This document shows positions 17,939 through 57,134 of a stretch of 64,000 nucleotides of DNA, piece after piece. The stretch's first letter is position 1, and each line of letters opens with the position of its first letter. Position numbers and translations under genes: made by a program. This DNA is from an uncultured Myxococcales bacterium (lineage in GTDB: Bacteria; Myxococcota; UBA4151), in NCBI GenBank assembly GCA_964013405.1, contig CAXGWI010000001.1:50402-114401 (forward strand), written 5' to 3'. The notes below the pieces were generated by a model that was not told the origin of the DNA, ran no database searches, and worked only from the letters and a program-made list of their open reading frames with translations.

Positions 17939-18464
17939 CGAGATAGCCTCCTGACTGCTCAAGGGCAGCCTCTTCTCGCCCGATGCGATGCCGCAAAAGG
18001 AGCCCATTGGCTAGGCTGAATACGAGGGCTGTCATCCAAGCTCCGCCCAGTAATGGCAGGGCTAAAATCTCCAGTACCACGCCCAGATAGTTGGGGTGCC
18101 GAATCCACCGATAAAGCCCACCCACTTGGGGCGGTGCCTCGGGCAGGATCATGATCGTGACTGTCCACCGCGGCCCAAGGGTCGAAATGGCCTCCCAACG
18201 CAAAGCTTGGCCCACAAGGAGTGCGAAGGCGCTGCTATAGACGAGCCAAGATGGTAGTTCAGTGGCAAAGAACGTGGCCTCGATGACGGCAGCGACCAAC
18301 CACAGGCTATGCAAGGCCCGCATCCAGGGCATCTGCTCTGGTGCGACTTCATAGCCTCCAGAGGCCACGATTTGGGCCTGATGCGTTGCGCTCAGGCGTA
18401 GTTCGGACAATCGCTGTAATCCAACCAGGCCAAGCAGTGCGAGGTAAGCCAGAAGAGGTGACAT
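17904..18464 (-). CDS. isoprenylcysteine carboxyl methyltransferase (ICMT)-family membrane methyltransferase (SrsB/FtpB-like)
   Basis: The RHPNYLG motif is present in a polytopic membrane protein. Its start MSPLLAYL at 18464 shares 1 nt with the PKS stop (18464-18466). Confidence 0.8.
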   Translation of the reverse strand: MSPLLAYLALLGLVGLQRLSELRLSATHQAQIVASGGYEVAPEQMPWMRALHSLWLVAAVIEATFFATELPSWLVYSSAFALLVGQALRWEAISTLGPRWTVTIMILPEAPPQVGGLYRWIRHPNYLGVVLEILALPLLGGAWMTALVFSLANGLLLRHRIGREEAALEQSGGYLDAFENRGRFIP

Positions 18465-24737: not shown

Positions 24738-26017
24738 TCCGCCTCTCGAGTGACGGATGCGCCCAGCTTCGACAGCTTGATCTCGAGATTCTCATAGCCC
24801 CGATCAAGATGGTAGATGCGCCGAACGATGGTCTCTCCATGAGCCACAAGACCGGCCAGAACCAAGGATGCCGAGGCCCTTAGATCCGAGGCGGTCACGG
24901 GCGCACCAGAAAGGCGCTTAACGCCTCGAATGGTGGCCGTCCGGCCCTCGACATGAATGTCCCCCCCCATGCGAACCAATTCGGAGGCGTGGAGGTAGCG
25001 ATTCTCGAAGATTTTTTCCGTGAACATGCTGCGGCCTTGCGCCACTGCCATCACGGCCATCAGCTGAGCTTGCATGTCCGTCGGAAAGCCTGGGTATTCA
25101 CCAGTGGTCACATCGACCGCTCGGGGGCGAAATGGCGCGTCGATGGTCACCTCACCGATTCCGGCTCCATTGACCTCGCCGATCTTCAGGCGACAGTCAG
25201 CTTCCCTCAGTTTCTCCACCAAGGCCTCGACATGGGACACTGGGCAGTTCGACAAGGTGAGGGACCCCTGCCCGATCGCACCGGCACACAAGAGGGTGCC
25301 CGCCTCAATGCGATCCGGTGGCACCTCGAAACGGCAGCCCGAAAGACGGTCCTGCCCCTGAATCACCAACCGGTGCGTTCCCTCACCCTCGATCTCTGCA
25401 CCCATGGCCCTGAGCAATTCGACGAGGGCGACAATCTCAGGCTCCCGGGCCGCGTTCTCGATCACACTCTCGCCCCGGGCCAAGACCGCAGCCATCAGGG
25501 CATTCTCCGTACCGCCGACCGTGATCTTCTCAAACACGACCCGCCCACCGACCAAGCCGCCGGGGGGGGTACGAGCAACCACATAGCCGGACTCCACCTC
25601 GATCCGGGCCCCTAGGGACTCCATGGCCTTCAAGTGGAGATCCACCGGCCGGGATCCAATGGCGCAGCCGCCCGGCATACTGACCCGAGCCTGCCCGCAG
25701 CGAGCAAGAAGCGGCCCCAGCACAAGAACCGAAGCCCGCATCGTCCGCACCAGATCATAGGCTGCGGTGGTGTCCTCGATCGTGGGTGTCGTCAGAACGA
25801 GCTCGCCGCCCCGGCGCTCTGTGAATTCCGTACCGAGGCTCACCAACAATCGCCCCATGGTCTGAACATCGACGAGCCGTGTGGGGGCTCCGGCAAAGCG
25901 GATCGGTTCTTCCGACAACAAAGTCGCCGCCATTAAGGGAAGCGCAGCATTTTTCGCGCCGCTCACCCGAACCGTACCACTGATGGGGCGCCCACCCTGG
26001 ATGCGAAAGATATCCAT
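24734..26017 (-). CDS. murA: UDP-N-acetylglucosamine 1-carboxyvinyltransferase
   Basis: MDIFRIQGGRPISGTVRVSGAKNAALP… is the start of a full-length (427 aa) MurA. It overlaps murJ by ATGA. Confidence 0.95.
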   Translation of the reverse strand: MDIFRIQGGRPISGTVRVSGAKNAALPLMAATLLSEEPIRFAGAPTRLVDVQTMGRLLVSLGTEFTERRGGELVLTTPTIEDTTAAYDLVRTMRASVLVLGPLLARCGQARVSMPGGCAIGSRPVDLHLKAMESLGARIEVESGYVVARTPPGGLVGGRVVFEKITVGGTENALMAAVLARGESVIENAAREPEIVALVELLRAMGAEIEGEGTHRLVIQGQDRLSGCRFEVPPDRIEAGTLLCAGAIGQGSLTLSNCPVSHVEALVEKLREADCRLKIGEVNGAGIGEVTIDAPFRPRAVDVTTGEYPGFPTDMQAQLMAVMAVAQGRSMFTEKIFENRYLHASELVRMGGDIHVEGRTATIRGVKRLSGAPVTASDLRASASLVLAGLVAHGETIVRRIYHLDRGYENLEIKLSKLGASVTREAE

Positions 26018-26643
26018 CAGCGACCCTTGAGCGGCCGCACACGGATATTGCGGATGTGGAGGTCAGTCTTCCAGTTATTGAACCCTAGCCGGTCGTGACC
26101 AGGCCCCACTAACGGCTTTTTGTCTGTCCGCTGCATGAAGGGACGACCGTCGAGAAACCACTCGATGAGCCCTGAGCCGCCATGGAGACTGCGCCTGACC
26201 TTCCACTGGTACCAGTGGCCTGGATCCCACTTGCCCTTCTTCCGAGTCCGACCGGTTTCATGTTCATCTTCTTTGGCGATCACGGCCAATGAGTTCCCCC
26301 AGCCACCGAGAATGCTGATGTAGCCGCTCTCGTGCCGAACCCCATCACCGCAAAACTCAAGCTTTCCGTCAGGCAGGTCTCGGCCCATCATCTCAAACTC
26401 AACCTCGAAGCTGTCGGGGACTTTGCGCTGGAGCCACAAAGGAAAGCGATTCTCCTCGCCAAGACTGCGCAACACACCATTCTCAACCCGCCAACTCCCG
26501 CCAACCGAAGCGAGCACGGTCGGGTCGATCTGCGATCCAAAATCGATCCGAAGCTCCTCGGTGAGCAGGGGAACCTCAGCACCGGCAGGCATGCGGCAGG
26601 CACCGGCGCAGATGAGCAATAGGCAGACGACCCGCAACGGCAA
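26017..26643 (-). CDS. secreted protein with signal peptide, possibly a DUF1080/LamG-like jelly-roll (3-keto-disaccharide hydrolase-like) domain
   Basis: The signal peptide is MPLRVVCLLLICAGACRMPAGAEV. The family assignment rests on size and topology only. Confidence 0.45.
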   Translation of the reverse strand: MPLRVVCLLLICAGACRMPAGAEVPLLTEELRIDFGSQIDPTVLASVGGSWRVENGVLRSLGEENRFPLWLQRKVPDSFEVEFEMMGRDLPDGKLEFCGDGVRHESGYISILGGWGNSLAVIAKEDEHETGRTRKKGKWDPGHWYQWKVRRSLHGGSGLIEWFLDGRPFMQRTDKKPLVGPGHDRLGFNNWKTDLHIRNIRVRPLKGR

Positions 26644-26879
26644 ACTCCTCGCTTGGTGTCGCTGCCTACCCGAAGCCTGGTCTGTTGCAAACGGCTTTAC
26701 GGTGGAAGGCCCGAAAGTGAACTTGTCGCGCTCCAGGCCGCGGGCTACGCCCCAGGCAGGAGGACAAGGTCCTGCAGCCCGAGAGCCCAGAAGAAAAAGC
26801 TGCCCACGAAGCGCAGCGCTATTTTATCGCCGCCCAGACCCGTAACGAACGTCGGATTTGGGCCGTCCTGGGGCCAATT

Positions 26880-28751
26880 ATGCTCCTGGGGGCGATCACG
26901 ATCTACCTCATGTGGAAGTTTAGCGACCTCCCAACCTCTGGGCTCGTCATTTTCCTCGTCGCCGGTTTAGGGACCCTCTACACCTCATTACTGATCTTCT
27001 GGCGGGGGCCTATTTCCACTTGGCTCGCCTTCGTCCTGGTAACGCTTGAGGGCTGTCTCGCACCGGCAATCCTTTGGAGCGACGCTTCGTTCGACCTCAC
27101 CTTGGCCCGGGAGAGTTCGGCTGCCGGGGTTGCCTTCGTTGCCGTCGCACTCGCTGGACTTCGCTATCGCCCCTGGCTGGTCGTCTACGCAGGGCTCATT
27201 GGCGGTGGTTTGACGGCCATCGGCTATCCTGTGTTCTGTCCAAGCGGCGCGAACGACGCCATCTTCTGTCACCCGGGCCTTTATTGGTGGCGGCCCATCT
27301 TCCTCCTCCTCGTCGCCTTCGCCGGTGCGCTGACCGTCTCTGCTGCGCTGCGAACCTTCGCCGTCACCGAGCGCACCATCTACGAAAAAGAGGAGACAGG
27401 TCGGCTCGCCGCCGCCAAACAACTGTTCTTAGCCAGTGTCACCCACGAGCTGCGCACGCCGCTCAACTCCATCCTCGTGCTCTCAAGACTTTTGAAGGAG
27501 TCGGAGGAACAGACCCCAAAAGGGAAGGAACAGGCAGAGGTGATTCACAATGCGGGCTCAAGCTTGCTCGCACTGATCAACGATATCCTCGATCTCTCCA
27601 AAATCGAGGCGGGGGCCATGGAACTGAGTCCAAAGCCAACGCACTTAGCCTCCTTTGCAGAAGCGTTAGAGTTGCTCTTCGAGCCAATTGCTCGGGAGAA
27701 GGAACTCGCTTTCGTTGTACGCAAAGTCGCAGGCACACCGAAAGAGATCGTCGTCGACCGTTTACGCCTCGATCAAATCCTTCGCAATCTCGTCGGTAAC
27801 GCACTGAAATTCACGGAAGCGGGTCGGGTGACGGTGATGATTCACCCGGTCGATGATGGTTGTCTCCAGCGACTTCTAGACCAAGGTCGAGCGGGCGTCA
27901 TCGCAGACAGCCGGGATGACTACGTCGCATTCTCTGTCCGAGACACCGGCCTCGGCATCAACCAGCAAGCACAACAGCAAATCTTCTCGGCCTTCGTTCA
28001 AGCCGATGCGACCACTGCCCAACGTTTTGGCGGCACGGGCCTGGGTCTCTCCATTTGTGCCCAACTGACCAAACTGATGGGCGGCGAGCTGGGTGTCGAA
28101 TCCTCTGAGGGCCTGGGCGCAACCTTCACCCTTCTGCTGCCCGTCGCCCAGCTGGATGCAGGGTCTGACACGCTCCTTGAAGAGGACGTAACCCTCATCG
28201 AGGACGCCCCCAGCGATCTCGCAGAAGACCTGGTCGAGATCACAAATCCTGGAACGGCAGCAACGACCCGAATCCGGGGCGAAGTGCTCCGTAGCGTCGC
28301 ACTGACCAACATCTCGCCGGCCGCGGCCACCGCCGAGGAGAGCTCCACTTCAGTCGGTCAGTTATGGGCGAGCCCCGCAACCGAGGAGTCGAGTCGAACA
28401 ACGCCGGGAACATATCACGATAAAAGGGCTGTGATCGCCCATGAGGATATCCTGACAAATTACCGGGCGGCATCGGCCCTTGAGGCCCTAGGACTCGAGG
28501 TCGTCTCCCGGACCTCCGAAGCGGAGGTCAGCCCGATTCTCCAAAGGTCGGTGCCCCCGGATCTCCTCTTGGTCTCGCCCGATCTCGCCCATCTTGCGGC
28601 AGCTACCACGGCACCCACCATCTTGATTTGTCATGACGAACAAGCGGAGCCCCCCCTTCCCGATGGGATTGCCGACGTCCTCTTTGCACCGGTGGATGGG
28701 CTACGCCTAAAGGCTTTGCTCGATGCCCACTTGGCCGGGGGGGAGACATGA
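26880..28751 (+). CDS. membrane-bound sensor histidine kinase with a C-terminal degenerate receiver-like region
   Basis: About 5 N-terminal TM helices are followed by the HisKA H-box SVTHELRTPLNS and HATPase N/G boxes (NLVGNALKFT, GGTGLGLSIC). The C-terminal roughly 150 aa are receiver-like without a clear phospho-Asp. Confidence 0.8.
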   Translation: MLLGAITIYLMWKFSDLPTSGLVIFLVAGLGTLYTSLLIFWRGPISTWLAFVLVTLEGCLAPAILWSDASFDLTLARESSAAGVAFVAVALAGLRYRPWLVVYAGLIGGGLTAIGYPVFCPSGANDAIFCHPGLYWWRPIFLLLVAFAGALTVSAALRTFAVTERTIYEKEETGRLAAAKQLFLASVTHELRTPLNSILVLSRLLKESEEQTPKGKEQAEVIHNAGSSLLALINDILDLSKIEAGAMELSPKPTHLASFAEALELLFEPIAREKELAFVVRKVAGTPKEIVVDRLRLDQILRNLVGNALKFTEAGRVTVMIHPVDDGCLQRLLDQGRAGVIADSRDDYVAFSVRDTGLGINQQAQQQIFSAFVQADATTAQRFGGTGLGLSICAQLTKLMGGELGVESSEGLGATFTLLLPVAQLDAGSDTLLEEDVTLIEDAPSDLAEDLVEITNPGTAATTRIRGEVLRSVALTNISPAAATAEESSTSVGQLWASPATEESSRTTPGTYHDKRAVIAHEDILTNYRAASALEALGLEVVSRTSEAEVSPILQRSVPPDLLLVSPDLAHLAAATTAPTILICHDEQAEPPLPDGIADVLFAPVDGLRLKALLDAHLAGGET

Positions 28752-28804
28752 AGAATCTGCGCTGCATCTTGACCCTCCGGCCTGCCTCCCCGTAGGGGCC
28801 AGAC

Positions 28805-29809
28805 ATGAAGATCAGTCTGATCATTCCCTGTTTCAATGAGGAGGAGAGCCTACCGCTGCTCATCCAAGAGATCGACGCGGTGATCGACGGTGAAGGACTG
28901 GATGCAGAAGTCCTCCTCATCGACGATGGCTCCATGGACGCCACCCCCGACCTGATCCGCAAGGCATCTAGGGCGCGCCCTGAGCGATATAAAGGCATCA
29001 TTTTCCGGCGCAACCACGGCCAGACCGCGGCCATGCTCGCGGGGATGGACCACGCATCAGGAGACGTTCTGGTGCCGCTGGACGCAGACTTACAAAACCC
29101 TCCTTCTGAAATCCCAAAACTGCTCGCCAAACTTGAAGAAGGCTACGACGTGGTCAGTGGCTGGCGCAAAGATCGACAGGACAAGGCCCTGACCCGAAAG
29201 CTCCCTAGTCGCATGGCGAACTGGCTTATCGGTAAAATCGGCGGCTTACCCCTCCACGATTATGGCTGCAGTCTCAAAGCCTACCGACGAGAGGTGATTC
29301 AGGGGGTTCGGCTCTACGGCGAGATGCACCGCTTCATTCCCATCTACGCCAAGTGGCAGGGTGCTCGCGTGACGGAACTTCCAGTGGAACACCGAGCACG
29401 AGCGCTGGGTACCAGTAAATATGGTCTGAACCGGACCTTCAAAGTCCTGCTCGATCTCCTGACCGTCAAGTTCCTCGGCGATTACGGACAAAAGCCCATC
29501 TATTTCTTTGGTGGCCTCGGCATGTTCCTTTGTGGACTTGGCACCCTATCCGCCATCGAAACATTGGTCGAAAAGGCGCTTTGGGGGGTGAAAGTCCACA
29601 CCAACCCCTTCATCATTTTGGCTGTCTTTCTCTTTATCGTCGGGGTCCAAGCCATCATGATGGGCCTGTTGGCGGATCTGCAGATGCGGACCTTCTACGA
29701 GAGTCAGGACAAGCGGACCTACCTCGTGTTGGAGACCTGTGGACTTGATGGGGAAGCACCCGAATTCACCGAATCGCCGACACAGCAATTTTCACCAGAA
29801 GACGCCTAG
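28805..29809 (+). CDS. GT2-family polyprenyl-phosphate glycosyltransferase (ArnC/GtrB/Dpm1-like)
   Basis: MKISLIIPCFNEEESL…LIDDGSMD…DADLQNP carries the DxD motif. Two C-terminal TM helices are present, as in ArnC/GtrB. Confidence 0.85.
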   Translation: MKISLIIPCFNEEESLPLLIQEIDAVIDGEGLDAEVLLIDDGSMDATPDLIRKASRARPERYKGIIFRRNHGQTAAMLAGMDHASGDVLVPLDADLQNPPSEIPKLLAKLEEGYDVVSGWRKDRQDKALTRKLPSRMANWLIGKIGGLPLHDYGCSLKAYRREVIQGVRLYGEMHRFIPIYAKWQGARVTELPVEHRARALGTSKYGLNRTFKVLLDLLTVKFLGDYGQKPIYFFGGLGMFLCGLGTLSAIETLVEKALWGVKVHTNPFIILAVFLFIVGVQAIMMGLLADLQMRTFYESQDKRTYLVLETCGLDGEAPEFTESPTQQFSPEDA

Positions 29810-31687
29810 ATGTGTGGGGTCATCGGCTGGATCGGCCAGCCGGGCAGTTCACCGAACGAAGCCTTGATCGAACGAGCGATGACTCGTCTGCACCATCGCG
29901 GTCCCGATGGTCGTGGTTATAGCGAACGTGACCATGTGGGACTGGGTCACACCCGACTGGCGATCATCGACCTGGCCGGCGCGAAGCAACCCATGGCCCA
30001 TGACTCCGGCTTGCGGATTAGCTTCAACGGCGAAATCTACAACTTCCGTGCCCTCCGCAATCGACTCGAGGGCCTGGGGCATCGCTTTGTGCTGAACTCG
30101 GATACCGAGGTCCTGGCTGCCGCCTGTGCCCAGTGGGGGCCGGAGGCGGTAGATCACCTTGAGGGAATGTATGCGTTTGTCGTCGATGACCCCGAGCGGG
30201 ACCTGGTGTGGGCCGCCCGTGACCCCTTAGGGCAAAAGCCCCTTTACGCCTGCGATGCTCGCTTTCAACCCCAGGCTGCTTGGCTCTTTGTCAGCGAACT
30301 GAAAGCTGTGCTCCCTGAGGCGGAGCGACGAGTCGACCGGGAGGCAGCACTTCGTTTTCTCACCTATGACTTCGTCCCCGACGAGGAGGGGATTTTTCAG
30401 GGGGTCCAAAAACTTCGCCCCGGTGAAGTCTGGTGCCTGCAACGATCCCAACCGGGCGAACCCCACAGGCGACGCTTCTTCCCCCTTCATCCCGGGGCAA
30501 AAATTGAAAGCACCGCAGACTACCTTGAAGGCTTAGAAACCAGGCTCGACGACGCTGTTCAGCGCCGTCTGGTCTCCGATGTCCCCCTGGGTGTGTTCTT
30601 GTCTGGTGGTATCGATTCATCCCTGATCACCGCCTTCGCAGTCCGACACCGAAAAGCGGGCGGTTTAAAAACCTTTGCGATCGGATTTGAAGAGAAGATT
30701 TTTGACGAGCGACATCACGCGCAAGCGGTCGCCGACCATCTCGGCACGGACCATCACTGTCGCGTCGTCACCGCCCAGCATCTTCTCGACGTGGTCCCCA
30801 CCATTCTCAGCCATCAAGACGAACCCTTCGGCGACCCCTCCTTGATTCCCACCTATCTGCTGAGTCAGTTCGCCCGGGAACAAGTGACGGTGGCCCTCGG
30901 CGGCGATGGCGGAGATGAACTCTTTCTCGGCTATCCCACCTTCGTCGCGGAATCCTTGCGAAAGCCGTTTCGGTGGTTCCCTCGGCTCGGCTGGAAAGCA
31001 AGTGCCGCCGCCGCCCAACTCCTCCCGGTCGGTCAAGGGCATTACCCCCTCGATTACAAAGTGAAACGCTTCCTCGCTGGCTCGTCTCGCCCCCTTCCCG
31101 ACCGGCACCAGGTCTGGATCGGTGGCGCGACCCCCGAGGTCCTCAGGCGGCTCGCCCCCGGCTTGAACGAGGAGGAGCTCTTTGCGCCGAGTCGACGATC
31201 CTGGGCTGCGAGCCGTGGCGATGATTTCGAGCGCTTGACCCAGCTTTATGCCGAGCACTACTTGGCCGCTGGCGTCCTGCAAAAAGCGGATCGAGCATCG
31301 ATGATGGTGAGCTTGGAACTTCGGGCCCCCTTTCTCGACCGGGGGGTCGTTCGCCATGCCCTGCAGGCCCCCCACGCACTGCGCATTTCCGGCAGACAGA
31401 CCAAAATTGCGCTGCGTCGCTTGGCCCAGCGCATGCTCCCCACCAGCATCACGGAACGCCCGAAAAAAGGCTTCGGCATTCCCCTGTCTGACTGGCTACG
31501 GGGCCCCTTGCGATCCTGGCTCGAGGAACAACTGGATGCCGACCGAATCAAGCAGCAGGATCTGTTTGCGCCGAGTGAAGTACGAGATCTCTTGGCCGAA
31601 CACCTGCGCGGCCAATGTGACCACGGTAAACTCCTGTGGAATCTCGCCTGCCTCTCTGCCTTTCTGAGTCGGAGTCACTCGCCATGA
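29810..31687 (+). CDS. asparagine synthetase B-like glutamine amidotransferase
   Basis: MCGVIGWIG is the N-terminal Cys nucleophile. The PP-loop SGGIDSS is present. The protein is 625 aa and starts 1 nt after the GT2 stop. Confidence 0.9.
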   Translation: MCGVIGWIGQPGSSPNEALIERAMTRLHHRGPDGRGYSERDHVGLGHTRLAIIDLAGAKQPMAHDSGLRISFNGEIYNFRALRNRLEGLGHRFVLNSDTEVLAAACAQWGPEAVDHLEGMYAFVVDDPERDLVWAARDPLGQKPLYACDARFQPQAAWLFVSELKAVLPEAERRVDREAALRFLTYDFVPDEEGIFQGVQKLRPGEVWCLQRSQPGEPHRRRFFPLHPGAKIESTADYLEGLETRLDDAVQRRLVSDVPLGVFLSGGIDSSLITAFAVRHRKAGGLKTFAIGFEEKIFDERHHAQAVADHLGTDHHCRVVTAQHLLDVVPTILSHQDEPFGDPSLIPTYLLSQFAREQVTVALGGDGGDELFLGYPTFVAESLRKPFRWFPRLGWKASAAAAQLLPVGQGHYPLDYKVKRFLAGSSRPLPDRHQVWIGGATPEVLRRLAPGLNEEELFAPSRRSWAASRGDDFERLTQLYAEHYLAAGVLQKADRASMMVSLELRAPFLDRGVVRHALQAPHALRISGRQTKIALRRLAQRMLPTSITERPKKGFGIPLSDWLRGPLRSWLEEQLDADRIKQQDLFAPSEVRDLLAEHLRGQCDHGKLLWNLACLSAFLSRSHSP

Positions 31688-32520
31688 CACGGCTGCTGGA
31701 CTACGCCTTGCTGCTCGGACTCGCGGTTGCCGTGCTGTTGTCGGCGGCCGGCTTCATGCCGCAAGCCCCCGACCTGCCGGATTCAGCCTGGCTAAAGGCC
31801 GGTCGAACGCTGGCAAAAAGAGCCTCCCGGCAGGACACGATCCTCCTCAATAATGGGGGCTCAACTGAGGGGCTTGCTCTCTTGCGAGACCAAGAACTCA
31901 AGCCCTTACTCGCGCTTCCTGAGCCTCGGGGGCGGGTCCAAAAGCTCTGGGTCCTTGGGCGTCGGGCCAAGCCACCGGCCGGCCTCGATGCCTTTCATCC
32001 AACCGGCCCAGCCGAAGCCGTGGCGCCCGGTCTCACCTTGTGGTCACTGCAAAGACCGGGAGGCTCGACCCTTTGGCGGGCATCGGAGGCCCTCGAAATG
32101 GCCGCGATCACAGTCGGAAAAACCCGCTGTTCCGGCCATCATCCGGCCGGTCGAAGCTGCCCAGGCTTACCAGATTGGATGCGCGTCACCCGAGAGCAAG
32201 TCACGATAAGCGGACGCAGTCACCACTGCCTTTGGGCCCATCCTCCTGCCCAGGGAACACCCCTGGTCATCGACTTCGGGCCTGTCCCTGAGGGAGAACT
32301 TCTCTTACGACACGGTCTCTCGGATGCCGCCAGTCGTTCGGGGAATACGTCCCCGGTCGAACTCAGGATTTTTAGTGCCCATGGAGAGCGACTCCTGCGG
32401 GCCCATAACCAGGCTGGTTTCCAGGCCGAGCGCTTGGCCGTGAAGGGACGACTCAAACTGAAAATCCGGGCCCAAAAGGATGGGATGAGGCATTATTGCT
32501 TCAGCGCGGAGATCCGATGA
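31684..32520 (+). CDS. hypothetical membrane-anchored (signal-anchor) protein
   Basis: The start MTRLLDYALLLGLAVAVLLSAAGF overlaps the asnB stop (ATGA at 31684-31687, verified). There is no recognisable domain. Confidence 0.5.
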   Translation: MTRLLDYALLLGLAVAVLLSAAGFMPQAPDLPDSAWLKAGRTLAKRASRQDTILLNNGGSTEGLALLRDQELKPLLALPEPRGRVQKLWVLGRRAKPPAGLDAFHPTGPAEAVAPGLTLWSLQRPGGSTLWRASEALEMAAITVGKTRCSGHHPAGRSCPGLPDWMRVTREQVTISGRSHHCLWAHPPAQGTPLVIDFGPVPEGELLLRHGLSDAASRSGNTSPVELRIFSAHGERLLRAHNQAGFQAERLAVKGRLKLKIRAQKDGMRHYCFSAEIR

Positions 32521-34124
32521 GTGCCCGGCTTCGAAATCCAGCGCTGCTTGTGTTCTTCCTGGTCTTTGTGGCTGCGGCCCTCACCTTGCCAGAGGTGGGT
32601 GTTACGGACGATGACGACTTCTATTTGCCAGCGGGGCACAGTTACTTTCGCTGGTCTCGTCGGGTGGTGAGCGAGCCAAGCGCCGCCTTACGTCAAGATC
32701 AACTGGACGCCCACTGGAGCCCGAACCGGGAGCATCCGCCGCTTGCGAAGTGGTTTATCGGGCTCGGCCGTTACCTAGGCCACGAGCTTTCCGGTTGGAT
32801 GCCGGCTCTCGATGCGGGCCGGCTTGGTACCTGTTTCTTCTTCGCTTTGGTCGTGGCGCTCATCTTCGCCCTCGCCCGAGAGCGACTCGGTCTAGGACCG
32901 GCCATTTTTGCGGCGGCTGCCTTTGTTCTCATCCCGAGACTCGCTTTTCATGGACGTGTGGCCACCCTCGATATGCCCGTAGCTGCCATGAGCACCCTCT
33001 TTTTCTTTGCCTTTTGGCGTCTGCATCGGACCCGATCGGCCAAAGCCATTTTACTCATGACCTTGGCCTTTGGCTTGGCCCTCTCCACGAAATTAAACGC
33101 CCCCTTTACCCTACTGGCTTGCGGGGTGTTTTGGCTGCTGGAAAGCCTGCCCGAGTTCCGACGAAACCGAGAAGGCATCCAGCTGCCTGATCTGCCCCTC
33201 TGGCTGCTGATCATCCCCGTCGGTGGCTTGCTGATTCAGGTGGCCCTGTGGCCTTGGCTTTGGCCTGATGTTATCGGCCGCTTCAGCGAATACGTCCGCT
33301 TCCATACCGGTCACTACCCGATCTACCTTTTCTATGAAGGGCAGATTTGGGAACGCCCATTTGCCCCTTGGCACGCCCCCTTTGCCCATACCTGGGCCGT
33401 GCTCCCCACCTCCCTCTTGTTTGCAGCCCTCGTTGGCTTTGCCGTGCTCCTGCGCCAGGCCTTTGGCTTCGAGCGCTTCGATGAACGCCCGGGCCCCGAT
33501 GAAGGGATGTTCGCCCGTTACCTTTTGATCCACGGCTTCATCGCCATCGGCACCGTCGCTTTTAGCCCAGTCCCCAAATATGGCGGCATCAAACTCTTTC
33601 TGCCCTTCTTTCCCCTCCTCGCCATCGCCATGGGCTTCGGGATGAAGCGGTTGCTCGAATGCCTGCCGAAAAAGCCGTGGGCGGTGCCTGTGCTCGCCGG
33701 CCTCTTGCTGTCGGGCGGTGCCATCGACAGTTGGAAGTTCCGGGGCCAAGCCCTCTCAAGCTTCGGGGCCCATGTGGGTGGTCTCTCCGGTGCTGTTCAG
33801 CGTGGCTATGAGCGACAATATTATGATGTCTTCGATCGCCATATGGCCCGTTGGCTCAGCGAGAACACCCCGAAAAGTGGACGGGTTTACTTCGAACCAA
33901 ACCACAAAGAGTACGTCCGCAGCGGTCCCTACCTGAAGCGTACAGGGGACCTACGCAGCGATATCCGGCTGCGTGGGGGGCACCGGGCTGATATCGTCGT
34001 TCTCACCCACGAGCGGCGGTGGCGAACCTTCGCCGACCTCGCCGAGAAACTTAAGCACCGGCCCGTTCTCTACGAACACCGAGTTGACGGTGTCGTCCTT
34101 TGGACTGCCTTCGGTCGCGACTAG
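32517..34124 (+). CDS. GT-C fold glycosyltransferase of the ArnT/PMT family (polyprenyl-phosphate-sugar dependent)
   Basis: There are about 11 TM helices. An acidic loop DDDDFY near the N-terminus resembles a GT-C catalytic DD/DE motif. A C-terminal soluble domain is present. ATGA overlap at 32517-32520. Confidence 0.7.
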   Translation: MSARLRNPALLVFFLVFVAAALTLPEVGVTDDDDFYLPAGHSYFRWSRRVVSEPSAALRQDQLDAHWSPNREHPPLAKWFIGLGRYLGHELSGWMPALDAGRLGTCFFFALVVALIFALARERLGLGPAIFAAAAFVLIPRLAFHGRVATLDMPVAAMSTLFFFAFWRLHRTRSAKAILLMTLAFGLALSTKLNAPFTLLACGVFWLLESLPEFRRNREGIQLPDLPLWLLIIPVGGLLIQVALWPWLWPDVIGRFSEYVRFHTGHYPIYLFYEGQIWERPFAPWHAPFAHTWAVLPTSLLFAALVGFAVLLRQAFGFERFDERPGPDEGMFARYLLIHGFIAIGTVAFSPVPKYGGIKLFLPFFPLLAIAMGFGMKRLLECLPKKPWAVPVLAGLLLSGGAIDSWKFRGQALSSFGAHVGGLSGAVQRGYERQYYDVFDRHMARWLSENTPKSGRVYFEPNHKEYVRSGPYLKRTGDLRSDIRLRGGHRADIVVLTHERRWRTFADLAEKLKHRPVLYEHRVDGVVLWTAFGRD

Positions 34125-35502: not shown

Positions 35503-38136
35503 CTATGCCGTCTCCGCTGGCTCACTGATCGGCACGCGGATCCATCCCAAATAGACCATGGCCGGAATTACCAACATGTCAGCGACCACGGCCATGATCA
35601 TGGTCATGGGCAGAATCAAACCCATGTATTTAAAGGTCAGGTAGGGACTTGTTAGCCAAATCCCAAATCCACAGACGAGAATGATGCTCGTCCGAACGAT
35701 CCCCAAACCCGTCTCGCACAGGCTCAAACGCACCGCTTCGTCCAAGTCCTTTCCGGCCTGACGCTCGTGGCGGTAGCGCACGAGAAAATGGATGGTGTCG
35801 TCCACTGCGATCCCCAGGGCCACCGAGACCAGAAAGAGGGCATCGATATCCACCATCAGCCCGAACAAGCCAACCACACCGATGCCTGAAATGACGGGCA
35901 GGATATTGGGCAACATCGAAGAAAGCCCAACGCGCACACTGCGAAACACAAAGGCCATGACGAGGGTGATGACCAAGGCAGCGAAGCCAAAGCCCTTCGC
36001 GAGTTGGGAAGACAGGGTTTCGATCAAATGAGAGAAGAGGGACTCCATCCCCGTAACCCCGGTTCGAAGGCCCCCTTCGGGCCTAGGAAAGAGCTCTTGG
36101 GCCGCCGCCTCGACTTCATCGACGATCTTCACCAAATTCGCGCTGCCAACGCTGGGCAGACGCAACTGGACCCGCACGTAGCGTCTGGACTCGTCGACCA
36201 AAAGGTTGAGCCCTTCCCCGCCCTCGCCAGCAAACAAAGCCAACTGGGAAGCCAACTGGGCTCGATTGGGCAAGGTCCCCTCGCCCCCCATCGCCGAGTG
36301 CGTTCGCTCAGCGATATCCACCAGGGAGATCACATCGAGAATGGGCTTCTTGCCCTCGTAGATATCGGGGCGCTGCAGGCCCCTTAGCTTGGATTCGAGG
36401 GCCTGAAGCCGAACAAGCACGGTGTTGGGTAGGGCCCCCGCAACGGGGTCGACAATCTCTGTGGATTCAGTGGCCCCATCGGCCGAACCAAAACCATCGT
36501 CGTCATCGAATCCGGCGATCTCCTCTTCCGTCGGCGTTTCCTGCTTCGTCGCTTCAGCGGGCCGTTGCTCGCGAATAAAGGCAGAGCGCTCCAACGCACC
36601 GCCCTCCTGCCCCGTATCGATGATGATTTCCGCAGACGCGCCCCCGGTCATCCGATCCCCGAACCACTTGGCAGCGACCTGAACAGGATGGCCATCATAG
36701 AACTTTGCATCGACGTTGGTATCGATCTTCAAGAGCATCAGGCCGATGATCGCGAGCACGGTAGACAGCCCACCCATCGCCACCACAAAGACCGGCCGCT
36801 CCTTGGCCACCAACCGGCACCGTTCCAAGGCTGCAGTCATCCACTTGCTCTCGCTCGGTGCGGCCCCTGGAACATTCAGGAGACTTAGGAGCGCAGGCCC
36901 CAACACAAAGGCGATCACAAAGGAGGCAGCCACCCCAATGCTCGCGATCACTGCCAGTTCTTTTGCGGTGCCCACCGGCAGAAAACGCAGGCTCGAAAAA
37001 CCGATCAAAGTCGTCAGGGTCGTCAGAAAACAAGCCATCCCCACCTCGTGAAAGGTGCGAATAATCGCTTCTTCTTTGTCACAGCGAAGGCGTTCTATTC
37101 GATACTGACCGACCAGATGAACGATATTCGCCGTCGCAAGAACGAGAATGATCATCGGTGCCATGGACGCGACAATGGACAGACCACCGTTGATCGTGCC
37201 GCCAAATCCAGCGCCCCAAAGGCTCGCTGGAAGCGCGGTCAAGAAGACCATCAACGTCGCTCGCCACTCTTTGAGCATGAAGCTCACAAGAATAAGAATG
37301 ATCACCAGGCTGGCAGCAAAATAAGGGCCCGCATGCCTTTCCGTCTCCAGCATCAGCGCCGTCAGGCTTGCGGGCATGCCTGTCTTGTAGAGACGCTCCA
37401 CATCAAAGCCGTTCGCCGCCACCAGATCGTAGAGGTCGGGAACAGCGAACATTCGGGCCGTATCGACGAGACTCGCTCGACCTTCATCGGTGCGTAAAAG
37501 AAGACGTCCATTGGGGAGCCGCTCGGCCGTCGCCAACATGGCGCTCTTGACACCGGGTCTTTTCATATCGGCTTTGGTGTCACCCACGAGACGGACGATC
37601 ACCGCGGTGCCCTTACCATCTTCCGTCAAGAGGCCGGGCACGTACATGCCATCAGCTCGGAGCGCTGCGACCGCCTCTACCCGCTCCGCATCGCTCTGCC
37701 CCTCGGGGAAATAAGGGCGAACCTCCATGGCCCCCGCTTCGTTCGAGCCAACACGCTGCAAGCCACCGAGTGAGGTCACCTCCATCACCATCGGGTGGGC
37801 CTCAAGAGCCTTCTCGAGGCGACGCAGCTTTTCAAGGAAGGCAGCAGTGAGGACTTCATCGTCCTCAATGCCGAGCAGCATCACATTGTCGGAGCCGAAA
37901 ATTTCCCGCGTATCGTAATAGTAATTCCCCCGCTCAGAGGACTCATCAATCATATAGCGGAGGGAGTTTCGGACCTCGACTTGCAGAAAGAGTGCGCCGG
38001 CGATGGCCGTCACGACCGCGATCAGAGCGATCGAAGACAAGCGAAAGCGAAGGACCAGTCGAACCCATGTATCCAGCCACTTAGCCAAAGCGACCTCCGA
38101 AGCGAGCGCCGTGTCTCTATCCAGTGGGGGCACTTC
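35503..38136 (-). CDS. RND-superfamily MMPL/HpnN-like transporter with two SSD/MMPL repeats
   Basis: Two 6-TM bundles are each preceded by a large periplasmic domain. The track start (38352) would overlap the divergent lipoprotein gene, so the MEVPPLDRD Met (38136) is preferred. Confidence 0.75.
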   Translation of the reverse strand, partial: EVPPLDRDTALASEVALAKWLDTWVRLVLRFRLSSIALIAVVTAIAGALFLQVEVRNSLRYMIDESSERGNYYYDTREIFGSDNVMLLGIEDDEVLTAAFLEKLRRLEKALEAHPMVMEVTSLGGLQRVGSNEAGAMEVRPYFPEGQSDAERVEAVAALRADGMYVPGLLTEDGKGTAVIVRLVGDTKADMKRPGVKSAMLATAERLPNGRLLLRTDEGRASLVDTARMFAVPDLYDLVAANGFDVERLYKTGMPASLTALMLETERHAGPYFAASLVIILILVSFMLKEWRATLMVFLTALPASLWGAGFGGTINGGLSIVASMAPMIILVLATANIVHLVGQYRIERLRCDKEEAIIRTFHEVGMACFLTTLTTLIGFSSLRFLPVGTAKELAVIASIGVAASFVIAFVLGPALLSLLNVPGAAPSESKWMTAALERCRLVAKERPVFVVAMGGLSTVLAIIGLMLLKIDTNVDAKFYDGHPVQVAAKWFGDRMTGGASAEIIIDTGQEGGALERSAFIREQRPAEATKQETPTEEEIAGFDDDDGFGSADGATESTEIVDPVAGALPNTVLVRLQALESKLRGLQRPDIYEGKKPILDVISLVDIAERTHSAMGGEGTLPNRAQLASQLALFAGEGGEGLNLLVDESRRYVRVQLRLPSVGSANLVKIVDEVEAAAQELFPRPEGGLRTGVTGMESLFSHLIETLSSQLAKGFGFAALVITLVMAFVFRSVRVGLSSMLPNILPVISGIGVVGLFGLMVDIDALFLVSVALGIAVDDTIHFLVRYRHERQAGKDLDEAVRLSLCETGLGIVRTSIILVCGFGIWLTSPYLTFKYMGLILPMTMIMAVVADMLVIPAMVYLGWIRVPISEPAETA

Positions 38137-38221
38137 CATCAAGCCGGTGGCGCCCCTCGACCCCAATACAAGCCGAGTGCGGCCCCATGACCACCGCAAC
38201 CAATTTAGGGTATGATGGGCC
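38137..38221. promoter_or_regulatory. short divergent promoter region between the MMPL transporter and the Cys-rich lipoprotein
   Basis: An 85-bp gap between divergent starts. It applies only if the MMPL start is at 38136. Confidence 0.25.
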
Positions 38222-39745
38222 ATGCTCCGTCCACTTCTGCTCCTCCTGACGGCGATCGCCTGTTCTGCGCCCCAACCGACCGCACCACCGATTCTTTTGA
38301 CGGAGGCGGGGCCCGTGCTGGCTACAGATGGGGGGCCGGGCCCAATAGCCAAGCGGCCCGATGTCTATCGCCCGCTGGATATCGGTGCCTCCAGCCGGGC
38401 GGACACCCCCAACCTTCCCCGGGCTCAACATGATGCGGGTTACCAACTCGTGGAACTGCCTGACCCCGCCTCTACCGACCCCTGTGGCCACGTTTGTCGT
38501 GGTCGTCCTTGTGCGCGGACCTGTCGAGAGAGCTGCCGCCTTGAGCTTCCCCGCGTCGTGGTGGCGCAACGAGAGCGTTTTATCGACTGTGTCGCCCAGA
38601 ACAGTTGCTCCATCGATGACTGTGTCCCCGAAGCAGTCCCGGTCGATCCGGCCTGTGAGACCCTCTGCGCCAATCGACACCTCGAGGCCTGTGGGCTGCC
38701 AGAGTTGGCCGCAGCAGGGCACCGCTGCCCCCAGAACTGCACCAGCTACATGGCCTCGATGTACCCAGCAGCCCGTCAAGCCTTCCTTCAATGCGGTATC
38801 GAGCAGTGCGTCTCCAGCGAGGCGCCCTGCGCTGGGACTGGCTATTGCGAACGGGGAGAGCGCTGCGGTGAAGGACGATGTGTTCCCGAAAAGCAATGCC
38901 CGATCATCGACTTCGTGGGCCCAGAACCAAGCGCAGAATGTCTCGACGTGGCTCGGTACCGGCAACGCTGTCACGACCCGCGTACCGAATCTCTTTATCG
39001 AGATGCTTGGGACTGTGAATCCTGGCGACCGAATCGGGACAATCTGGATTGGGCCGGGGGCAACCTCTATATCTCGTGCTTGGCCCAGACCGAGGCCTGT
39101 GATGGCTTTGGGCCCTACTGGCAATGCCTCGGCGAAGCCATGGTGGCCCAGGGGCGGCGGCGCCTGGTGGACGAGGTTTGCACCCACATTCAGGGTTGCG
39201 ATTCGGGCAAGGGCTGGACCTGCAACTATGTGATGGCCGGTGCCAGCCGTTGGGCGGGGGAGCGGGTCGTATGGAAGCTGGATCGCTGCAGCGCCGCGGC
39301 GGGTCGGGACTGCCAGGCCCTCGAGGCTTGCGTTGACGGTCTATGGGCTGTGGAAGGTCCCGGTGATGCCTGTGCAACTGGCTGCGGCCGCTGCGGTCAG
39401 GTCAATGACACCTGCATTAATCTTTGTCTCTACCATCGCAACTCGATGACGCGGCAGCAGGCCCGTCGTTATGAACACTGCCTCCGGGCCAGTCCCCGCT
39501 GTGAGCACAACGTGGCCGAGACCTGTATCCGGGAAGTGCTGGGCGCCGAAATGGCGGTCTGTGACCAACTCATGGAAAGCATCGGCGAGTGCGCAGAATG
39601 GGAGACCTATACCCAGAACATCCCGTGGCCGGGTTGGTGCGCCATCGGCGGCGTCCGAACTGGCCTCCTTGATCGGGAGGGCCTTGAGGCCTGTGTCGAC
39701 ATGACCAATTGCCGCGTGAACCCCTGGCAAGCTTGTGCTCGTTGA
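38222..39745 (+). CDS. secreted cysteine-rich lipoprotein (about 50 Cys)
   Basis: The lipobox signal is MLRPLLLLLTAIAC. Cys-rich modules recur (CxxxC/CxC). No enzymatic motif is present. Confidence 0.6.
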   Translation: MLRPLLLLLTAIACSAPQPTAPPILLTEAGPVLATDGGPGPIAKRPDVYRPLDIGASSRADTPNLPRAQHDAGYQLVELPDPASTDPCGHVCRGRPCARTCRESCRLELPRVVVAQRERFIDCVAQNSCSIDDCVPEAVPVDPACETLCANRHLEACGLPELAAAGHRCPQNCTSYMASMYPAARQAFLQCGIEQCVSSEAPCAGTGYCERGERCGEGRCVPEKQCPIIDFVGPEPSAECLDVARYRQRCHDPRTESLYRDAWDCESWRPNRDNLDWAGGNLYISCLAQTEACDGFGPYWQCLGEAMVAQGRRRLVDEVCTHIQGCDSGKGWTCNYVMAGASRWAGERVVWKLDRCSAAAGRDCQALEACVDGLWAVEGPGDACATGCGRCGQVNDTCINLCLYHRNSMTRQQARRYEHCLRASPRCEHNVAETCIREVLGAEMAVCDQLMESIGECAEWETYTQNIPWPGWCAIGGVRTGLLDREGLEACVDMTNCRVNPWQACAR

Positions 39746-43005: not shown

Positions 43006-43191
43006 TCAGTAATGGGGCGGCTTCTCGTCGGCCGGGCCCGCGTCAACGGTGTTGTCGCCTAAAGCCTCCAAGCGCCGAAAGACCTCATCGATTCGATGGA
43101 CTTGGCCATTCAACTCCCCCGAGAGTTCGTCCAGAAAACGCTCGATGTATGCCAAACGCTCTTCCAACTGTGTGATCCGTTCCTCACTCAT
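43006..43191 (-). CDS. slyX: SlyX-family coiled-coil protein
   Basis: MSEERITQLEERLAYIERFLDELS…; the protein is 61 aa. Confidence 0.65.
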   Translation of the reverse strand: MSEERITQLEERLAYIERFLDELSGELNGQVHRIDEVFRRLEALGDNTVDAGPADEKPPHY

Positions 43192-57125: not shown

Positions 57126-57134
57126 GGTCCCATA

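What the first reader, a model, noticed from the sequence alone, without database searches (positions are those of the whole stretch)
26880..34124. Sensor kinase followed by a coupled GT2 - AsnB-like amidotransferase - anchor protein - ArnT/PMT-like GT-C operon: a candidate lipid-linked, amidated-sugar modification system
The polyprenyl-phosphate glycosyltransferase (ArnC/GtrB-like) ends 1 nt before an AsnB-type Gln-amidotransferase. That gene overlaps (ATGA) a signal-anchored protein of unknown function. The anchor protein in turn overlaps (ATGA) a multi-TM GT-C transferase of the ArnT/PMT family. ArnC+ArnT-type pairs move a sugar via undecaprenyl-phosphate to a periplasmic acceptor (lipid A, glycan or protein). 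An AsnB paralog embedded between them suggests the transferred unit or the acceptor is amidated, as in WbpS-type or mDAP-amidating enzymes. A multi-TM histidine kinase lies 54 bp upstream and could control it. No acceptor or sugar can be named from sequence, so this may be an undescribed envelope-modification pathway.
Basis: partly seen in the sequence, partly recalled or inferred. Interest (0 to 1): 0.55.

Follow-up and report, generated by a model that had tools for sequence, protein, structure and literature searches.

The report
Amidotransferase-coupled periplasmic glycosylation operon
A four-gene operon in an uncultured marine myxobacterium looks like a variant of the known "three-component" systems that add sugars to envelope glycans outside the cytoplasm, with an added amidating enzyme and an undescribed sugar-binding partner protein; the sensor kinase next to it is not a conserved part of it.

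Summary
Five co-directional genes sit at 26880-34124. GT2 stops where AsnB starts, and AsnB/anchor and anchor/GT-C overlap by ATGA.

Comparative genomics splits the cluster into two conserved couples.
- The anchor protein (ANC) precedes this GT-C family in 39 of 42 related loci. ANC has no Pfam or NCBIfam family but about 1,000 representative homologues. Its model shows a CBM-like beta-sandwich. In other organisms it is fused to a GtrA flippase domain or to a GT-C-like membrane domain.
- An ArnC-like GT2 sits directly upstream of AsnB in 17 of 22 of the closest AsnB relatives from unrelated metagenomes. These loci often hold other GT-C proteins. A cultured example is an Azospirillum oryzae plasmid.

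AsnB is not E. coli-type AsnB. It scores best against the WbpS/XrtA sugar-amidotransferase model but below its cut-off, and it was co-inherited with ANC-GT-C.

The kinase is conserved only in the closest relative (1 of 33 loci).

Best reading: a Gtr/Arn-like extracytoplasmic glycosylation system. AsnB amidates the donor sugar, and ANC binds a glycan acceptor. Sugar and acceptor remain unknown, and no uronate-forming dehydrogenase is linked. I rate it a new variant of a known kind, of moderate interest.

The parts
26644..26879 (.). Divergent intergenic region between a 208-aa secreted protein gene (- strand) and the kinase; presumed promoter region
   Evidence: no sigma-70-like consensus found; no Rfam element.
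26880..28751 (+). Membrane histidine kinase: N-terminal multi-TM region, HisKA 179-245, HATPase_c 293-423, and about 190 aa of C-terminal sequence with no detectable domain. A lineage-specific neighbour, not a conserved part of the system.
   Evidence: Conserved only in L005. A sister lineage has a cyclase-domain gene inside the operon instead.
28805..29809 (+). GT2 polyprenyl-phosphate glycosyltransferase (ArnC/GtrB type), with a cytoplasmic catalytic domain and C-terminal TM helices; predicted synthase of the lipid-linked sugar donor
   Evidence: ArnC model 225 bits, cut-off 529; ArnC structure 2.7e-62; GtrB sll0501 1e-32. It is 51% identical to the GT2 in the Azospirillum asnB locus and sits directly upstream of AsnB in 17/22 closest AsnB loci.
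29810..31687 (+). AsnB-family glutamine-dependent amidotransferase (Cys2 nucleophile, SGGIDSS PP-loop); predicted to convert a carboxylate on the donor sugar to a carboxamide
   Evidence: (TIGR03108 457 bits < 817; TIGR01536 429 > 267; E. coli-type AsnB PRK09431 277 < 499).
31684..32520 (+). ANC: bitopic periplasmic protein with an N-terminal TM helix, an alpha/beta domain, and a C-terminal CBM-like beta-sandwich carrying invariant C149, C159, W184, H186, P187 and H270. It is the obligate partner of the GT-C and the predicted acceptor-glycan-binding subunit.
   Evidence: pLDDT 88.8; 1040 representative homologues; CBM51/6/35, E 5e-5; fusions to GtrA and to a GT-C-like domain.
32517..34124 (+). 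GT-C fold glycosyltransferase (PMT_2/ArnT-like) with the conserved T-D-D-D-D-F-Y motif after TM1, an N-x-E-H-P-P-x-A-K loop motif, and a C-terminal periplasmic domain; predicted to transfer the sugar from polyprenyl phosphate to a periplasmic acceptor
   Evidence: pLDDT 90.5; ArnT 5ezm, E 3e-8, TM 0.45-0.47; ArnT is the only significant profile hit in the PDB.

Best explanation
Genes 28805-34124 encode a four-protein variant of the three-component (Gtr/Arn-type) extracytoplasmic glycosylation systems.

Proposed steps:
1. The ArnC-like GT2 loads a sugar from a nucleotide donor onto polyprenyl phosphate at the cytoplasmic face.
2. The AsnB-type enzyme uses glutamine and ATP to convert a carboxylate on that sugar into a neutral carboxamide. 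This happens either on the nucleotide sugar or on the lipid-linked intermediate. The likely product is a uronamide, as with WbpS/WbqG.
3. The lipid-linked sugar is flipped by a flippase that is not encoded in the operon.
4. The GT-C enzyme transfers it to a periplasmic acceptor. The CBM-like, membrane-anchored ANC protein, which is translationally coupled to the GT-C, binds that acceptor. The acceptor is most likely an envelope polysaccharide or LPS glycan.

Shown here: gene anatomy, family and fold assignments, intact catalytic motifs, the conserved ANC-GT-C and GT2-AsnB couplings, and the gene fusions.

Inferred: the substrate of AsnB, the identity of the sugar and the acceptor, and the order of steps.

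The adjacent histidine kinase is a lineage-specific neighbour. It may be co-transcribed but is not a conserved part of the system.
For: Anatomy and families.

GT-C:
- The AF2 model (pLDDT 90.5) is most similar to ArnT.
- ArnT is the only significant profile hit in the PDB.
- The invariant acidic motif lies just after TM1.

ANC:
- It lies directly upstream of the GT-C in 39/42 loci.
- Its high-confidence model has a CBM51/CBM6/CBM35-like beta-sandwich.
- Conserved cysteine pairs fit a periplasmic location.
- A GtrA::ANC fusion is followed by a homologous GT-C.
- A GT-C-like::ANC fusion sits downstream of a polyprenyl-P-type GT2.
- Precedent: CBMs on the GT-C enzymes Emb, AftD and GT136 ORF12 bind the acceptor polysaccharide (PMC11127046).

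AsnB:
- It is adjacent to ANC-GT-C in 13/39 loci, and the AsnB and GT-C trees share the same three subclades, which indicates co-inheritance.
- In an independent metagenome sample, an ArnC-like GT2 sits directly upstream of AsnB in 17/22 of the closest relatives, against 3/18 and 2/16 for more distant ones. This ties AsnB to donor synthesis.
- Other GT-C proteins lie nearby in several of these loci.
- The same triad sits inside an rfb-like locus on an Azospirillum oryzae plasmid.
- The best-scoring NCBIfam model is TIGR03108. That family contains WbpS, WbqG and PGN_1234, which are required for uronamide formation (PMC7468200; PMC6025236).

Other support:
- The organism has LptF/LptG, so it is a diderm with LPS.
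- Auxiliary enzymes that modify the donor in such systems are known, for example the ORF13 epimerase (PMC11127046). ArnD is another example, from my own knowledge.
Against: - No UDP-sugar 6-dehydrogenase lies within about 8-10 kb in the window, in any ANC-GT-C locus or in any GT2-AsnB locus. The uronic acid precursor is therefore assumed, not seen.
- AsnB is below the TIGR03108 cut-off (457 vs 817) and does not branch with the WbpS or XrtA anchor sequences. Deep nodes in the tree are unsupported (bootstrap 2-41%).
- No flippase gene is present in the operon or the window (this was a weak single-sequence test).
- Two thirds of ANC-GT-C loci lack an adjacent GT2-AsnB. Amidation may be optional, or the genes may be unlinked in those genomes.
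- The CBM similarity is modest (TM about 0.45-0.49, 7-14% identity).
- There is no biochemical evidence for any member of these families.
Confidence: 0.55

Rival explanations
1. ArnT-like lipid A or LPS inner-core modification. The GT-C transfers a single neutral or amidated sugar to lipid A phosphate or Kdo to change surface charge, and the adjacent sensor kinase controls it, as PmrAB controls arn.
For: ArnT is the best structural match and the only profile hit in the PDB. The GT2 is closest to ArnC. The organism has Lpt genes. The kinase lies 53 nt upstream on the same strand.
Against: No ArnT or ArnC equivalog score is reached. No arnA/B/D/E/F-like genes are present. The kinase is conserved in 1/33 loci and has no adjacent response regulator. 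To my knowledge, ArnT-type lipid A transferases have no CBM-like partner. On other GT-C enzymes a CBM indicates a polysaccharide acceptor.
Confidence: 0.15
2. AsnB acts on the acceptor, not the donor. For example, it amidates peptidoglycan mDAP (as LtsA/AsnB1 do) or uronic acids already in a polymer, and the GT2/GT-C pair adds an ordinary hexose.
For: In the marine clade the operon lies beside murJ-murA. From my own knowledge, AsnB-family enzymes amidate lipid II mDAP in Corynebacterium and Lactobacillus.
Against: The murJ/murA flank occurs only in the marine subclade; other loci have unrelated flanks. AsnB is coupled to the GT2 far beyond this lineage, in loci rich in polysaccharide genes (GT4, methyltransferases, O-antigen genes). 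AsnB is cytoplasmic, so it could reach only precursors.
Confidence: 0.12
3. A PMT-like protein O-glycosylation system, in which ANC is either the adaptor for protein substrates or itself the glycosylated substrate.
For: The Pfam PMT and PMT_2 domains pass their gathering scores. NCBI names relatives 'glycosyltransferase family 39'. Pmt4 is among the fold matches. The GT2 also resembles PgfS of the streptococcal Pgf protein-glycosylation system (152 bits).
Against: There is no MIR domain. ArnT ranks above the PMTs in the fold search. ANC is predicted to be compact and well folded (pLDDT 88.8) and, on my reading of its sequence, has no Ser/Thr-rich linker. Its fold resembles carbohydrate-binding modules.
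Confidence: 0.12
4. AsnB is simply the organism's asparagine synthetase, and its position between the glycosylation genes is fortuitous.
For: It passes the broad TIGR01536 asparagine synthase model (429 > 267). NCBI annotates it as asparagine synthase. The rest of the genome could not be checked for another asnB.
Against: It fails the E. coli-type AsnB model (277 < 499) and is only 28% identical to E. coli AsnB, against 35-45% to EPS-type amidotransferases. Its genes are translationally coupled on both sides. The synteny recurs and the trees are congruent.
Confidence: 0.04

Closest known systems
GtrABC-type three-component glycosylation (Shigella/Salmonella O-antigen glucosylation; CsbB/GtcA/YfhO in Firmicutes)
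   Same: A GtrB-like GT2 makes a polyprenyl-phosphate sugar and a GT-C-type membrane enzyme transfers it outside the cytoplasm. One ANC homologue is fused to a GtrA flippase domain.
   Different: No GtrA is encoded in this operon. The GT-C belongs to a different family. The system has an extra AsnB amidotransferase and an extra CBM-like bitopic subunit.
Arn pathway (ArnC, ArnD, ArnE/F, ArnT) for lipid A L-Ara4N modification
   Same: The GT2 is closest to ArnC and the GT-C is closest in fold to ArnT. A cytoplasmic auxiliary enzyme edits the donor, as ArnD deformylates Und-P-Ara4FN (ArnD from my own knowledge).
   Different: Neither protein reaches the ArnC or ArnT equivalog score. There are no arnA/B/D/E/F genes. 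The auxiliary chemistry is amidation, not deformylation. A CBM-like partner is present. A lipid A acceptor is not indicated.
Citrobacter youngae O1/O2 pentofuranose three-component system (PPPRS synthase, MATE flippase, GT136 GT-C with C-terminal CBM, ORF13 epimerase; PMC11127046)
   Same: It performs extracytoplasmic side-chain glycosylation by a GT-C. A CBM binds the acceptor polysaccharide. An auxiliary cytoplasmic enzyme determines the donor sugar identity.
   Different: The donor synthase is a GT2, not a phosphoribosyltransferase. The CBM is a separate, membrane-anchored protein rather than a domain of the GT-C. The auxiliary enzyme is an amidotransferase. The GT-C family is unrelated.
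WbpS / WbqG / PGN_1234 (TIGR03108-family uronamide-forming amidotransferases)
   Same: All are AsnB-family enzymes of about 620-650 aa with an intact glutaminase Cys and PP-loop, encoded in surface-glycan loci. TIGR03108 is the best-scoring model. The window AsnB is 36% identical to the P. aeruginosa O6-type WbpS.
   Different: The window AsnB scores below the family cut-off and branches apart from WbpS and from an XrtA-type member. It is coupled to a polyprenyl-phosphate GT2 rather than to UDP-sugar dehydrogenase/epimerase genes.
Rhizobium RgtE / RgtA-D (dodecaprenyl-phosphate galacturonic acid donor and ArnT-like transferases to LPS core and lipid A)
   Same: From my own knowledge, an ArnC-like GT2 makes a lipid-linked uronic acid that ArnT-like GT-C enzymes transfer in the periplasm. 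This is the nearest precedent for a lipid-linked uronate donor.
   Different: No amidotransferase or CBM-like partner is known in that system. Homology to RgtE could not be tested here because no sequence was available.

Membership tests
ArnT (GT83, lipid A Ara4N transferase) | Sequence reaches an ArnT equivalog model | tested here: not met
   The NCBIfam scan of the GT-C returned only a weak Agl23 hit and no ArnT model. The A1 profile hits ArnT 5ezm at only E 2.8e-4 over the PMT_2 core.
ArnT (GT83, lipid A Ara4N transferase) | GT-C fold with a multi-TM core plus a C-terminal periplasmic domain | tested here: met
   In the Foldseek search with the AF2 model (pLDDT 90.5), ArnT 5ezm/5f15 is the best match (E 3e-8, TM 0.45-0.47).
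ArnT (GT83, lipid A Ara4N transferase) | arnBCADTEF operon context and a lipid A acceptor | tested here: not met
   Only an ArnC-like gene is present; there are no arnA/B/D/E/F homologues. The acceptor is not testable with these tools.
ArnC (Und-P Ara4FN transferase) | Reaches the PRK10714 equivalog cut-off | tested here: not met
   225 bits against a cut-off of 529. The architecture is shared at family level with ArnC and GtrB structures.
Polyprenyl-phosphate GT2 (GtrB/ArnC/DPMS type) | GT-A catalytic domain with a DxD motif plus C-terminal TM helices; full-length similarity to GtrB/ArnC structures | tested here: met
   PF00535 at 2e-31. Residues 2-323 align to ArnC 9bhc and residues 2-315 to sll0501 GtrB. 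The DADLQ motif is visible in the sequence.
Gtr-type three-component system | A dedicated flippase (GtrA, ArnE/F or MATE) encoded with the GT2 and the GT-C | tested here: not met
   No GtrA-like ORF was found in the window (weak test). A GtrA domain is fused to ANC in homologue P0143/L139.
WbpS/XrtA-type amidotransferase (TIGR03108) | Score at or above the curated cut-off | tested here: not met
   457 bits against 816.9, although it is the best-scoring model. GT2-linked relatives score 460-553.
WbpS/XrtA-type amidotransferase (TIGR03108) | Intact glutaminase nucleophile and ATP pyrophosphatase loop; location in a surface-glycan locus | tested here: met
   Cys2, R49, N73-G74 and SGGxDSS are invariant in alignment A4. 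Context is shown.
Housekeeping asparagine synthetase B | Reaches the E. coli-type AsnB model PRK09431; housekeeping context in relatives | tested here: not met
   277 bits against 499. It is 28% identical to E. coli AsnB. Relatives are embedded in glycosylation loci. Whether it is the genome's only asnB could not be tested.
PMT / GT39 protein O-mannosyltransferase | PMT domain plus a luminal MIR domain; protein acceptor | tested here: inconclusive
   The PMT and PMT_2 Pfam domains pass their gathering scores. No MIR domain is detected. The PMT structures rank below ArnT. The acceptor is not testable.
Two-component regulation of the operon | The kinase is conserved with the operon and paired with a response regulator | tested here: not met
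   The kinase occurs in 1/33 loci. No receiver domain or regulator is detected nearby.
Carbohydrate-binding module (ANC C-terminal domain) | Beta-sandwich fold similar to known CBMs; demonstrated glycan binding | tested here: inconclusive
   Foldseek finds CBM51, CBM6 and CBM35 at E 5e-5 to 1e-3, with TM 0.4-0.49 relative to the target. Glycan binding is not testable. No sequence family exists.

The most novel reading that the evidence does not exclude
The window exemplifies an undescribed, widespread class of extracytoplasmic glycosylation system with two new elements.

First, an AsnB-clade amidotransferase works as an obligate partner of a polyprenyl-phosphate GT2. Together they make a lipid-linked carboxamide sugar donor. 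AsnB may act on the lipid-linked intermediate itself, a kind of AsnB-family substrate I do not know to have been described.

Second, a new protein family (ANC, about 1,000 representative clusters, no Pfam entry) acts as a trans-acting, membrane-anchored lectin subunit for GT-C transferases.
Probability: 0.35. Interest if true: 0.7.

Novelty: new variant of a known kind. Interest (0 to 1): 0.55.

Why it matters
Three-component systems are a main route by which bacteria diversify surface glycans after assembly. They affect phage receptors, serotypes, and resistance to cationic peptides.

If the reading here is right, this work would add:
- a family definition and a testable role for an unannotated protein (ANC) that accompanies a major Myxococcota GT-C family;
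- a cross-phylum GT2-AsnB gene couple that predicts amidated, charge-neutral lipid-linked sugar donors;
- a cultivable test system, the Azospirillum oryzae plasmid locus.

It would also correct automated annotation, which calls the AsnB an asparagine synthase and calls ANC and the GT-C hypothetical proteins.

Tried and rejected
- **Radical SAM neighbour.** It recurs in several Myxococcota loci and looked like a possible pathway member. It is RlmN-like (271 bits, cut-off 290), so I treat it as housekeeping synteny.
- **Hopanoid link.** I considered a HpnI/HpnJ/HpnN-type link because an MMPL/sterol-sensing transporter lies downstream. It is on the opposite strand, beyond a guanine deaminase gene, and was not seen next to the module in the other loci whose neighbours I examined. 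Rejected.
- **Receiver domain in the kinase C-terminus.** Neither Pfam nor a PDB sequence search detects one.
- **Promoter, terminator and Rfam scans of the operon.** Nothing informative.
- **Sequence searches of ANC against the PDB.** Single sequence and profile both found nothing.
- **Profile-based word-index search for ANC.** It added only four proteins. The exhaustive HMMER search was needed to see the family.
- **Reverse synteny test.** None of 80 AsnB-seeded metagenome loci held ANC or this GT-C family. This showed that AsnB's primary partner is the GT2.
- **Linked UDP-sugar 6-dehydrogenase.** None found in relevant loci.
- **Literature searches for a described GT2-AsnB-GT-C system.** None found.
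- **My simple gene caller.** It produced shadow ORFs in these high-GC loci. Neighbourhood statistics therefore rest on profile hits instead.

Full report
**1. Observation**

The region holds five co-directional ORFs:
- a histidine kinase (HK), 26880-28751;
- a GT2, 28805-29809;
- an AsnB-family enzyme, 29810-31687;
- a 278-aa protein with one N-terminal TM helix (ANC), 31684-32520;
- a 535-aa polytopic protein (GT-C), 32517-34124.

The GT2 stop abuts the AsnB start. ATGA overlaps join AsnB to ANC and ANC to the GT-C. A 53-nt spacer separates HK from GT2.

Pfam and NCBIfam confirm the domain calls. The flanks are housekeeping genes on the other strand: 7TM-HD, mazG, murJ, murA and a 208-aa secreted protein upstream, and guanine deaminase plus an MMPL transporter downstream. 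The source is a marine MAG labelled Myxococcales. Public annotation calls ANC, the GT-C and the HK 'hypothetical', and calls the AsnB 'asparagine synthase'. The window also encodes LptF/LptG, so the organism is a diderm with LPS.

**2. The individual proteins**

*GT2.* It aligns end to end with ArnC structures (2.7e-62) and with GtrB sll0501. It scores far below the ArnC equivalog cut-off (225 vs 529). It is therefore a polyprenyl-phosphate glycosyltransferase of unknown sugar specificity.

*AsnB.* It keeps the Cys2 nucleophile and the SGGIDSS PP-loop. It passes the broad TIGR01536 model and fails the E. coli-type AsnB model (277 vs 499). Its best score is against TIGR03108, at 457 bits against a cut-off of 817.

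*GT-C.* It passes PMT_2 and PMT. Across 32 homologues it has an invariant acidic motif (T30 D31 D32, with D33 D34 in at least 90%, then F and Y36) directly after TM1, plus an N-x-E-H-P-P-x-A-K motif. Its AF2 model (pLDDT 90.5) is most similar to ArnT (E 3e-8, TM 0.45-0.47), followed by STT3, ALG12, Pmt4 and PglB. ArnT is also the only significant PDB hit of the family profile. So it is ArnT/PMT-like at superfamily level and not an ArnT orthologue.

*ANC.* It has no Pfam, NCBIfam or PDB sequence match. An exhaustive HMMER search finds 1,040 representative homologues, 491 of them at E<=1e-10. Its AF2 model is confident (pLDDT 88.8). It shows a TM helix, an alpha/beta domain and a C-terminal beta-sandwich whose best PDB matches are carbohydrate-binding modules (CBM51, CBM6, CBM35; E 5e-5 to 1e-3). 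The invariant residues are C149, C159, W184, H186, P187 and H270. The conserved cysteines fit a periplasmic location.

**3. Synteny seeded on the GT-C**

A scan of species-representative genomes returned 48 loci. Nearly all are Myxococcota or 'Deltaproteobacteria' MAGs. Profile searches of their ORFs gave these counts:

| Gene | Position | Loci with it / loci with enough upstream sequence |
|---|---|---|
| ANC | directly upstream of the GT-C | 39 / 42 |
| AsnB | directly upstream of ANC | 13 / 39 |
| ArnC-like GT2 | upstream of AsnB | 10 / 37 |
| HK | upstream of GT2 | 1 / 33 (the 79%-identical relative L005) |

In a sister lineage with the same murA/murJ flank, the HK is absent and a cyclase-domain gene sits between GT2 and AsnB. 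More distant loci have unrelated flanks.

The AsnBs linked to ANC-GT-C form one clade (bootstrap 82%). Their three subclades match those of the GT-C tree, so AsnB has been co-inherited with ANC-GT-C. AsnB-linked loci occupy one major half of the GT-C tree, interspersed with unlinked ones.

**4. Gene fusions**

- In P0143/L139, a GtrA flippase domain is fused to a full-length ANC. A homologous GT-C (28% identity, E 1e-53) follows it directly.
- In P0254/L141, a GT-C-like (PTPS_related) membrane domain is fused to the ANC beta-sandwich. It lies downstream of a polyprenyl-phosphate-type GT2 and a methyltransferase.

These fusions place ANC inside the flipping and transfer machinery for polyprenyl-phosphate sugars.

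There is a direct precedent. CBMs on GT-C enzymes (EmbC, AftD, GT136 ORF12) bind the acceptor polysaccharide (PMC11127046). I therefore read ANC as a trans-acting acceptor-binding subunit.

**5. Synteny seeded on AsnB (the reverse test)**

I retrieved 80 metagenome loci that encode AsnB relatives. None contains ANC or this GT-C family. An ArnC-like GT2 (about 290-370 bits to the window GT2) lies immediately upstream of AsnB in:
- 17/22 assessable loci in the top third by AsnB similarity;
- 3/18 in the middle third;
- 2/16 in the bottom third.

Several of these loci also hold other GT-C proteins: PMT_2, PMT_2+TPR and Alg9-like. They also hold methyltransferases, GT4s, an SDR epimerase and an acyltransferase.

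A cultured example is the Azospirillum oryzae KACC 14407 plasmid. Inside an rfb-like locus it carries asnB (40% identity), a 642-aa protein with at least 9 predicted TM segments and a YWDDW motif after TM1, a GT2 51% identical to the window GT2, and a flippase-like LPG_synthase_TM protein. AsnB's primary partner is therefore the GT2, on the donor side. The GT2-AsnB-GT-C triad is more general than this lineage.

**6. Classifying AsnB**

I built a tree with three anchor sequences:
- E. coli AsnB;
- WbpS from a P. aeruginosa O6-type cluster, in the order wzz-tviB/wbpO-tviC/wbpP-wzx-GT-asnB (the WbpS identification from gene order is mine);
- a PGAP-named XrtA/PEP-CTERM amidotransferase.

The window AsnB is 28% identical to E. 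coli AsnB, 35-36% to WbpS and the XrtA type, and 40-45% to the GT2-linked AsnBs. The GT2-linked sequences cluster together and apart from WbpS and the XrtA type. The deep nodes are weakly supported (2-41%).

The literature supports the chemistry. WbpS, WbqG and PGN_1234 are TIGR03108-family members needed to form uronamides (PMC7468200; PMC6025236).

**7. Mechanism**

Shown: the anatomy, folds, motifs, couplings and fusions described above.

Inferred sequence of steps:
1. The GT2 makes a polyprenyl-phosphate sugar.
2. AsnB amidates a carboxylate on the donor, either before or after transfer to the lipid. This resembles other auxiliary donor-editing enzymes in such systems (the ORF13 epimerase; ArnD, from my own knowledge).
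3. An unidentified flippase moves the donor across the membrane.
4. The GT-C, with ANC, transfers the sugar to a periplasmic glycan.

Main weaknesses:
- No UDP-sugar 6-dehydrogenase is linked in any relevant locus.
- No flippase is found in the window.
- Two thirds of ANC-GT-C loci lack a linked GT2-AsnB.
- The CBM similarity is modest.

**8. Kinase**

The kinase is a multi-TM HisKA/HATPase_c protein. Its best NCBIfam matches are hybrid kinases. No receiver domain is detectable in its C-terminal 190 aa, and no regulator is adjacent. It is conserved only in the nearest relative. Co-transcription is possible, since the gap is 53 nt and no terminator is predicted between the two genes. A regulatory role is unsupported.

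**9. Verdict**

The kinase link and the specific ArnT/lipid A analogy are not supported.

I found no description of the GT2-AsnB couple or of the ANC family in the literature searched. I rate it a new variant of a known kind, of moderate interest.

Noticed in passing
window 14441-19528 (- strand): A cluster of an FAD oxidoreductase, an AMP-dependent ligase, an ICMT-like membrane methyltransferase and a type III polyketide synthase. It resembles alkylresorcinol/alkylpyrone lipid loci.
   Followed up: no
window 26017-26643 (- strand): A 208-aa secreted or lipoprotein-like protein with no family. It is divergent from the operon and is conserved next to it only in the marine subclade (L005, L007, P0014 locus).
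   Followed up: partly
locus of P0014 (JGI 3300072015): In a sister lineage with the same murA/murJ flank, a 422-aa guanylate/adenylate-cyclase-domain gene sits between GT2 and AsnB, and the kinase is absent. Different signalling genes have been recruited to the same operon.
   Followed up: partly
L003, L025, L030, L042: A DUF2079 polytopic membrane protein lies beside the AsnB-ANC-GT-C module in several Myxococcota loci. An RlmN-like radical SAM gene recurs upstream in L001, L003, L015, L020, L025 and L030.
   Followed up: partly
L010, L011, L026, L033, L042: Here ANC is followed by two tandem paralogous GT-C genes (ANC-GT-C'-GT-C), which suggests diversification of the transferase behind one ANC.
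   Followed up: no
L001 11820-14123, L012 11598-13604 and six other loci (- strand): A 670-770-aa protein with a weak metallopeptidase (M10/reprolysin) signature lies convergent just downstream of the GT-C in 8 loci.
   Followed up: no
L056 2556-3731, L060 10101-11306, L062 8004-9239: A roughly 400-aa soluble protein with no Pfam or NCBIfam family lies directly downstream of AsnB in three GT2-AsnB metagenome loci. It may be a further pathway component.
   Followed up: no
window 38117-39745: A 507-aa + strand ORF (38222-39745) with no family overlaps a 356-aa - strand ORF (38117-39187). Which strand codes here is unclear.
   Followed up: no
window 35503-38352 (- strand) and 46543-49074 (+ strand): An MMPL/sterol-sensing-domain RND-like transporter, and a sulfatase carrying a MopE-type copper-binding motif.
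   Followed up: no
window 43188-45116, 52719-57194 (- strand): A DUF5939 + cyclase-domain protein, a FHIPEP export-gate protein, and a Wzz/BY-kinase-like protein. The last indicates polysaccharide export machinery elsewhere in the window.
   Followed up: no
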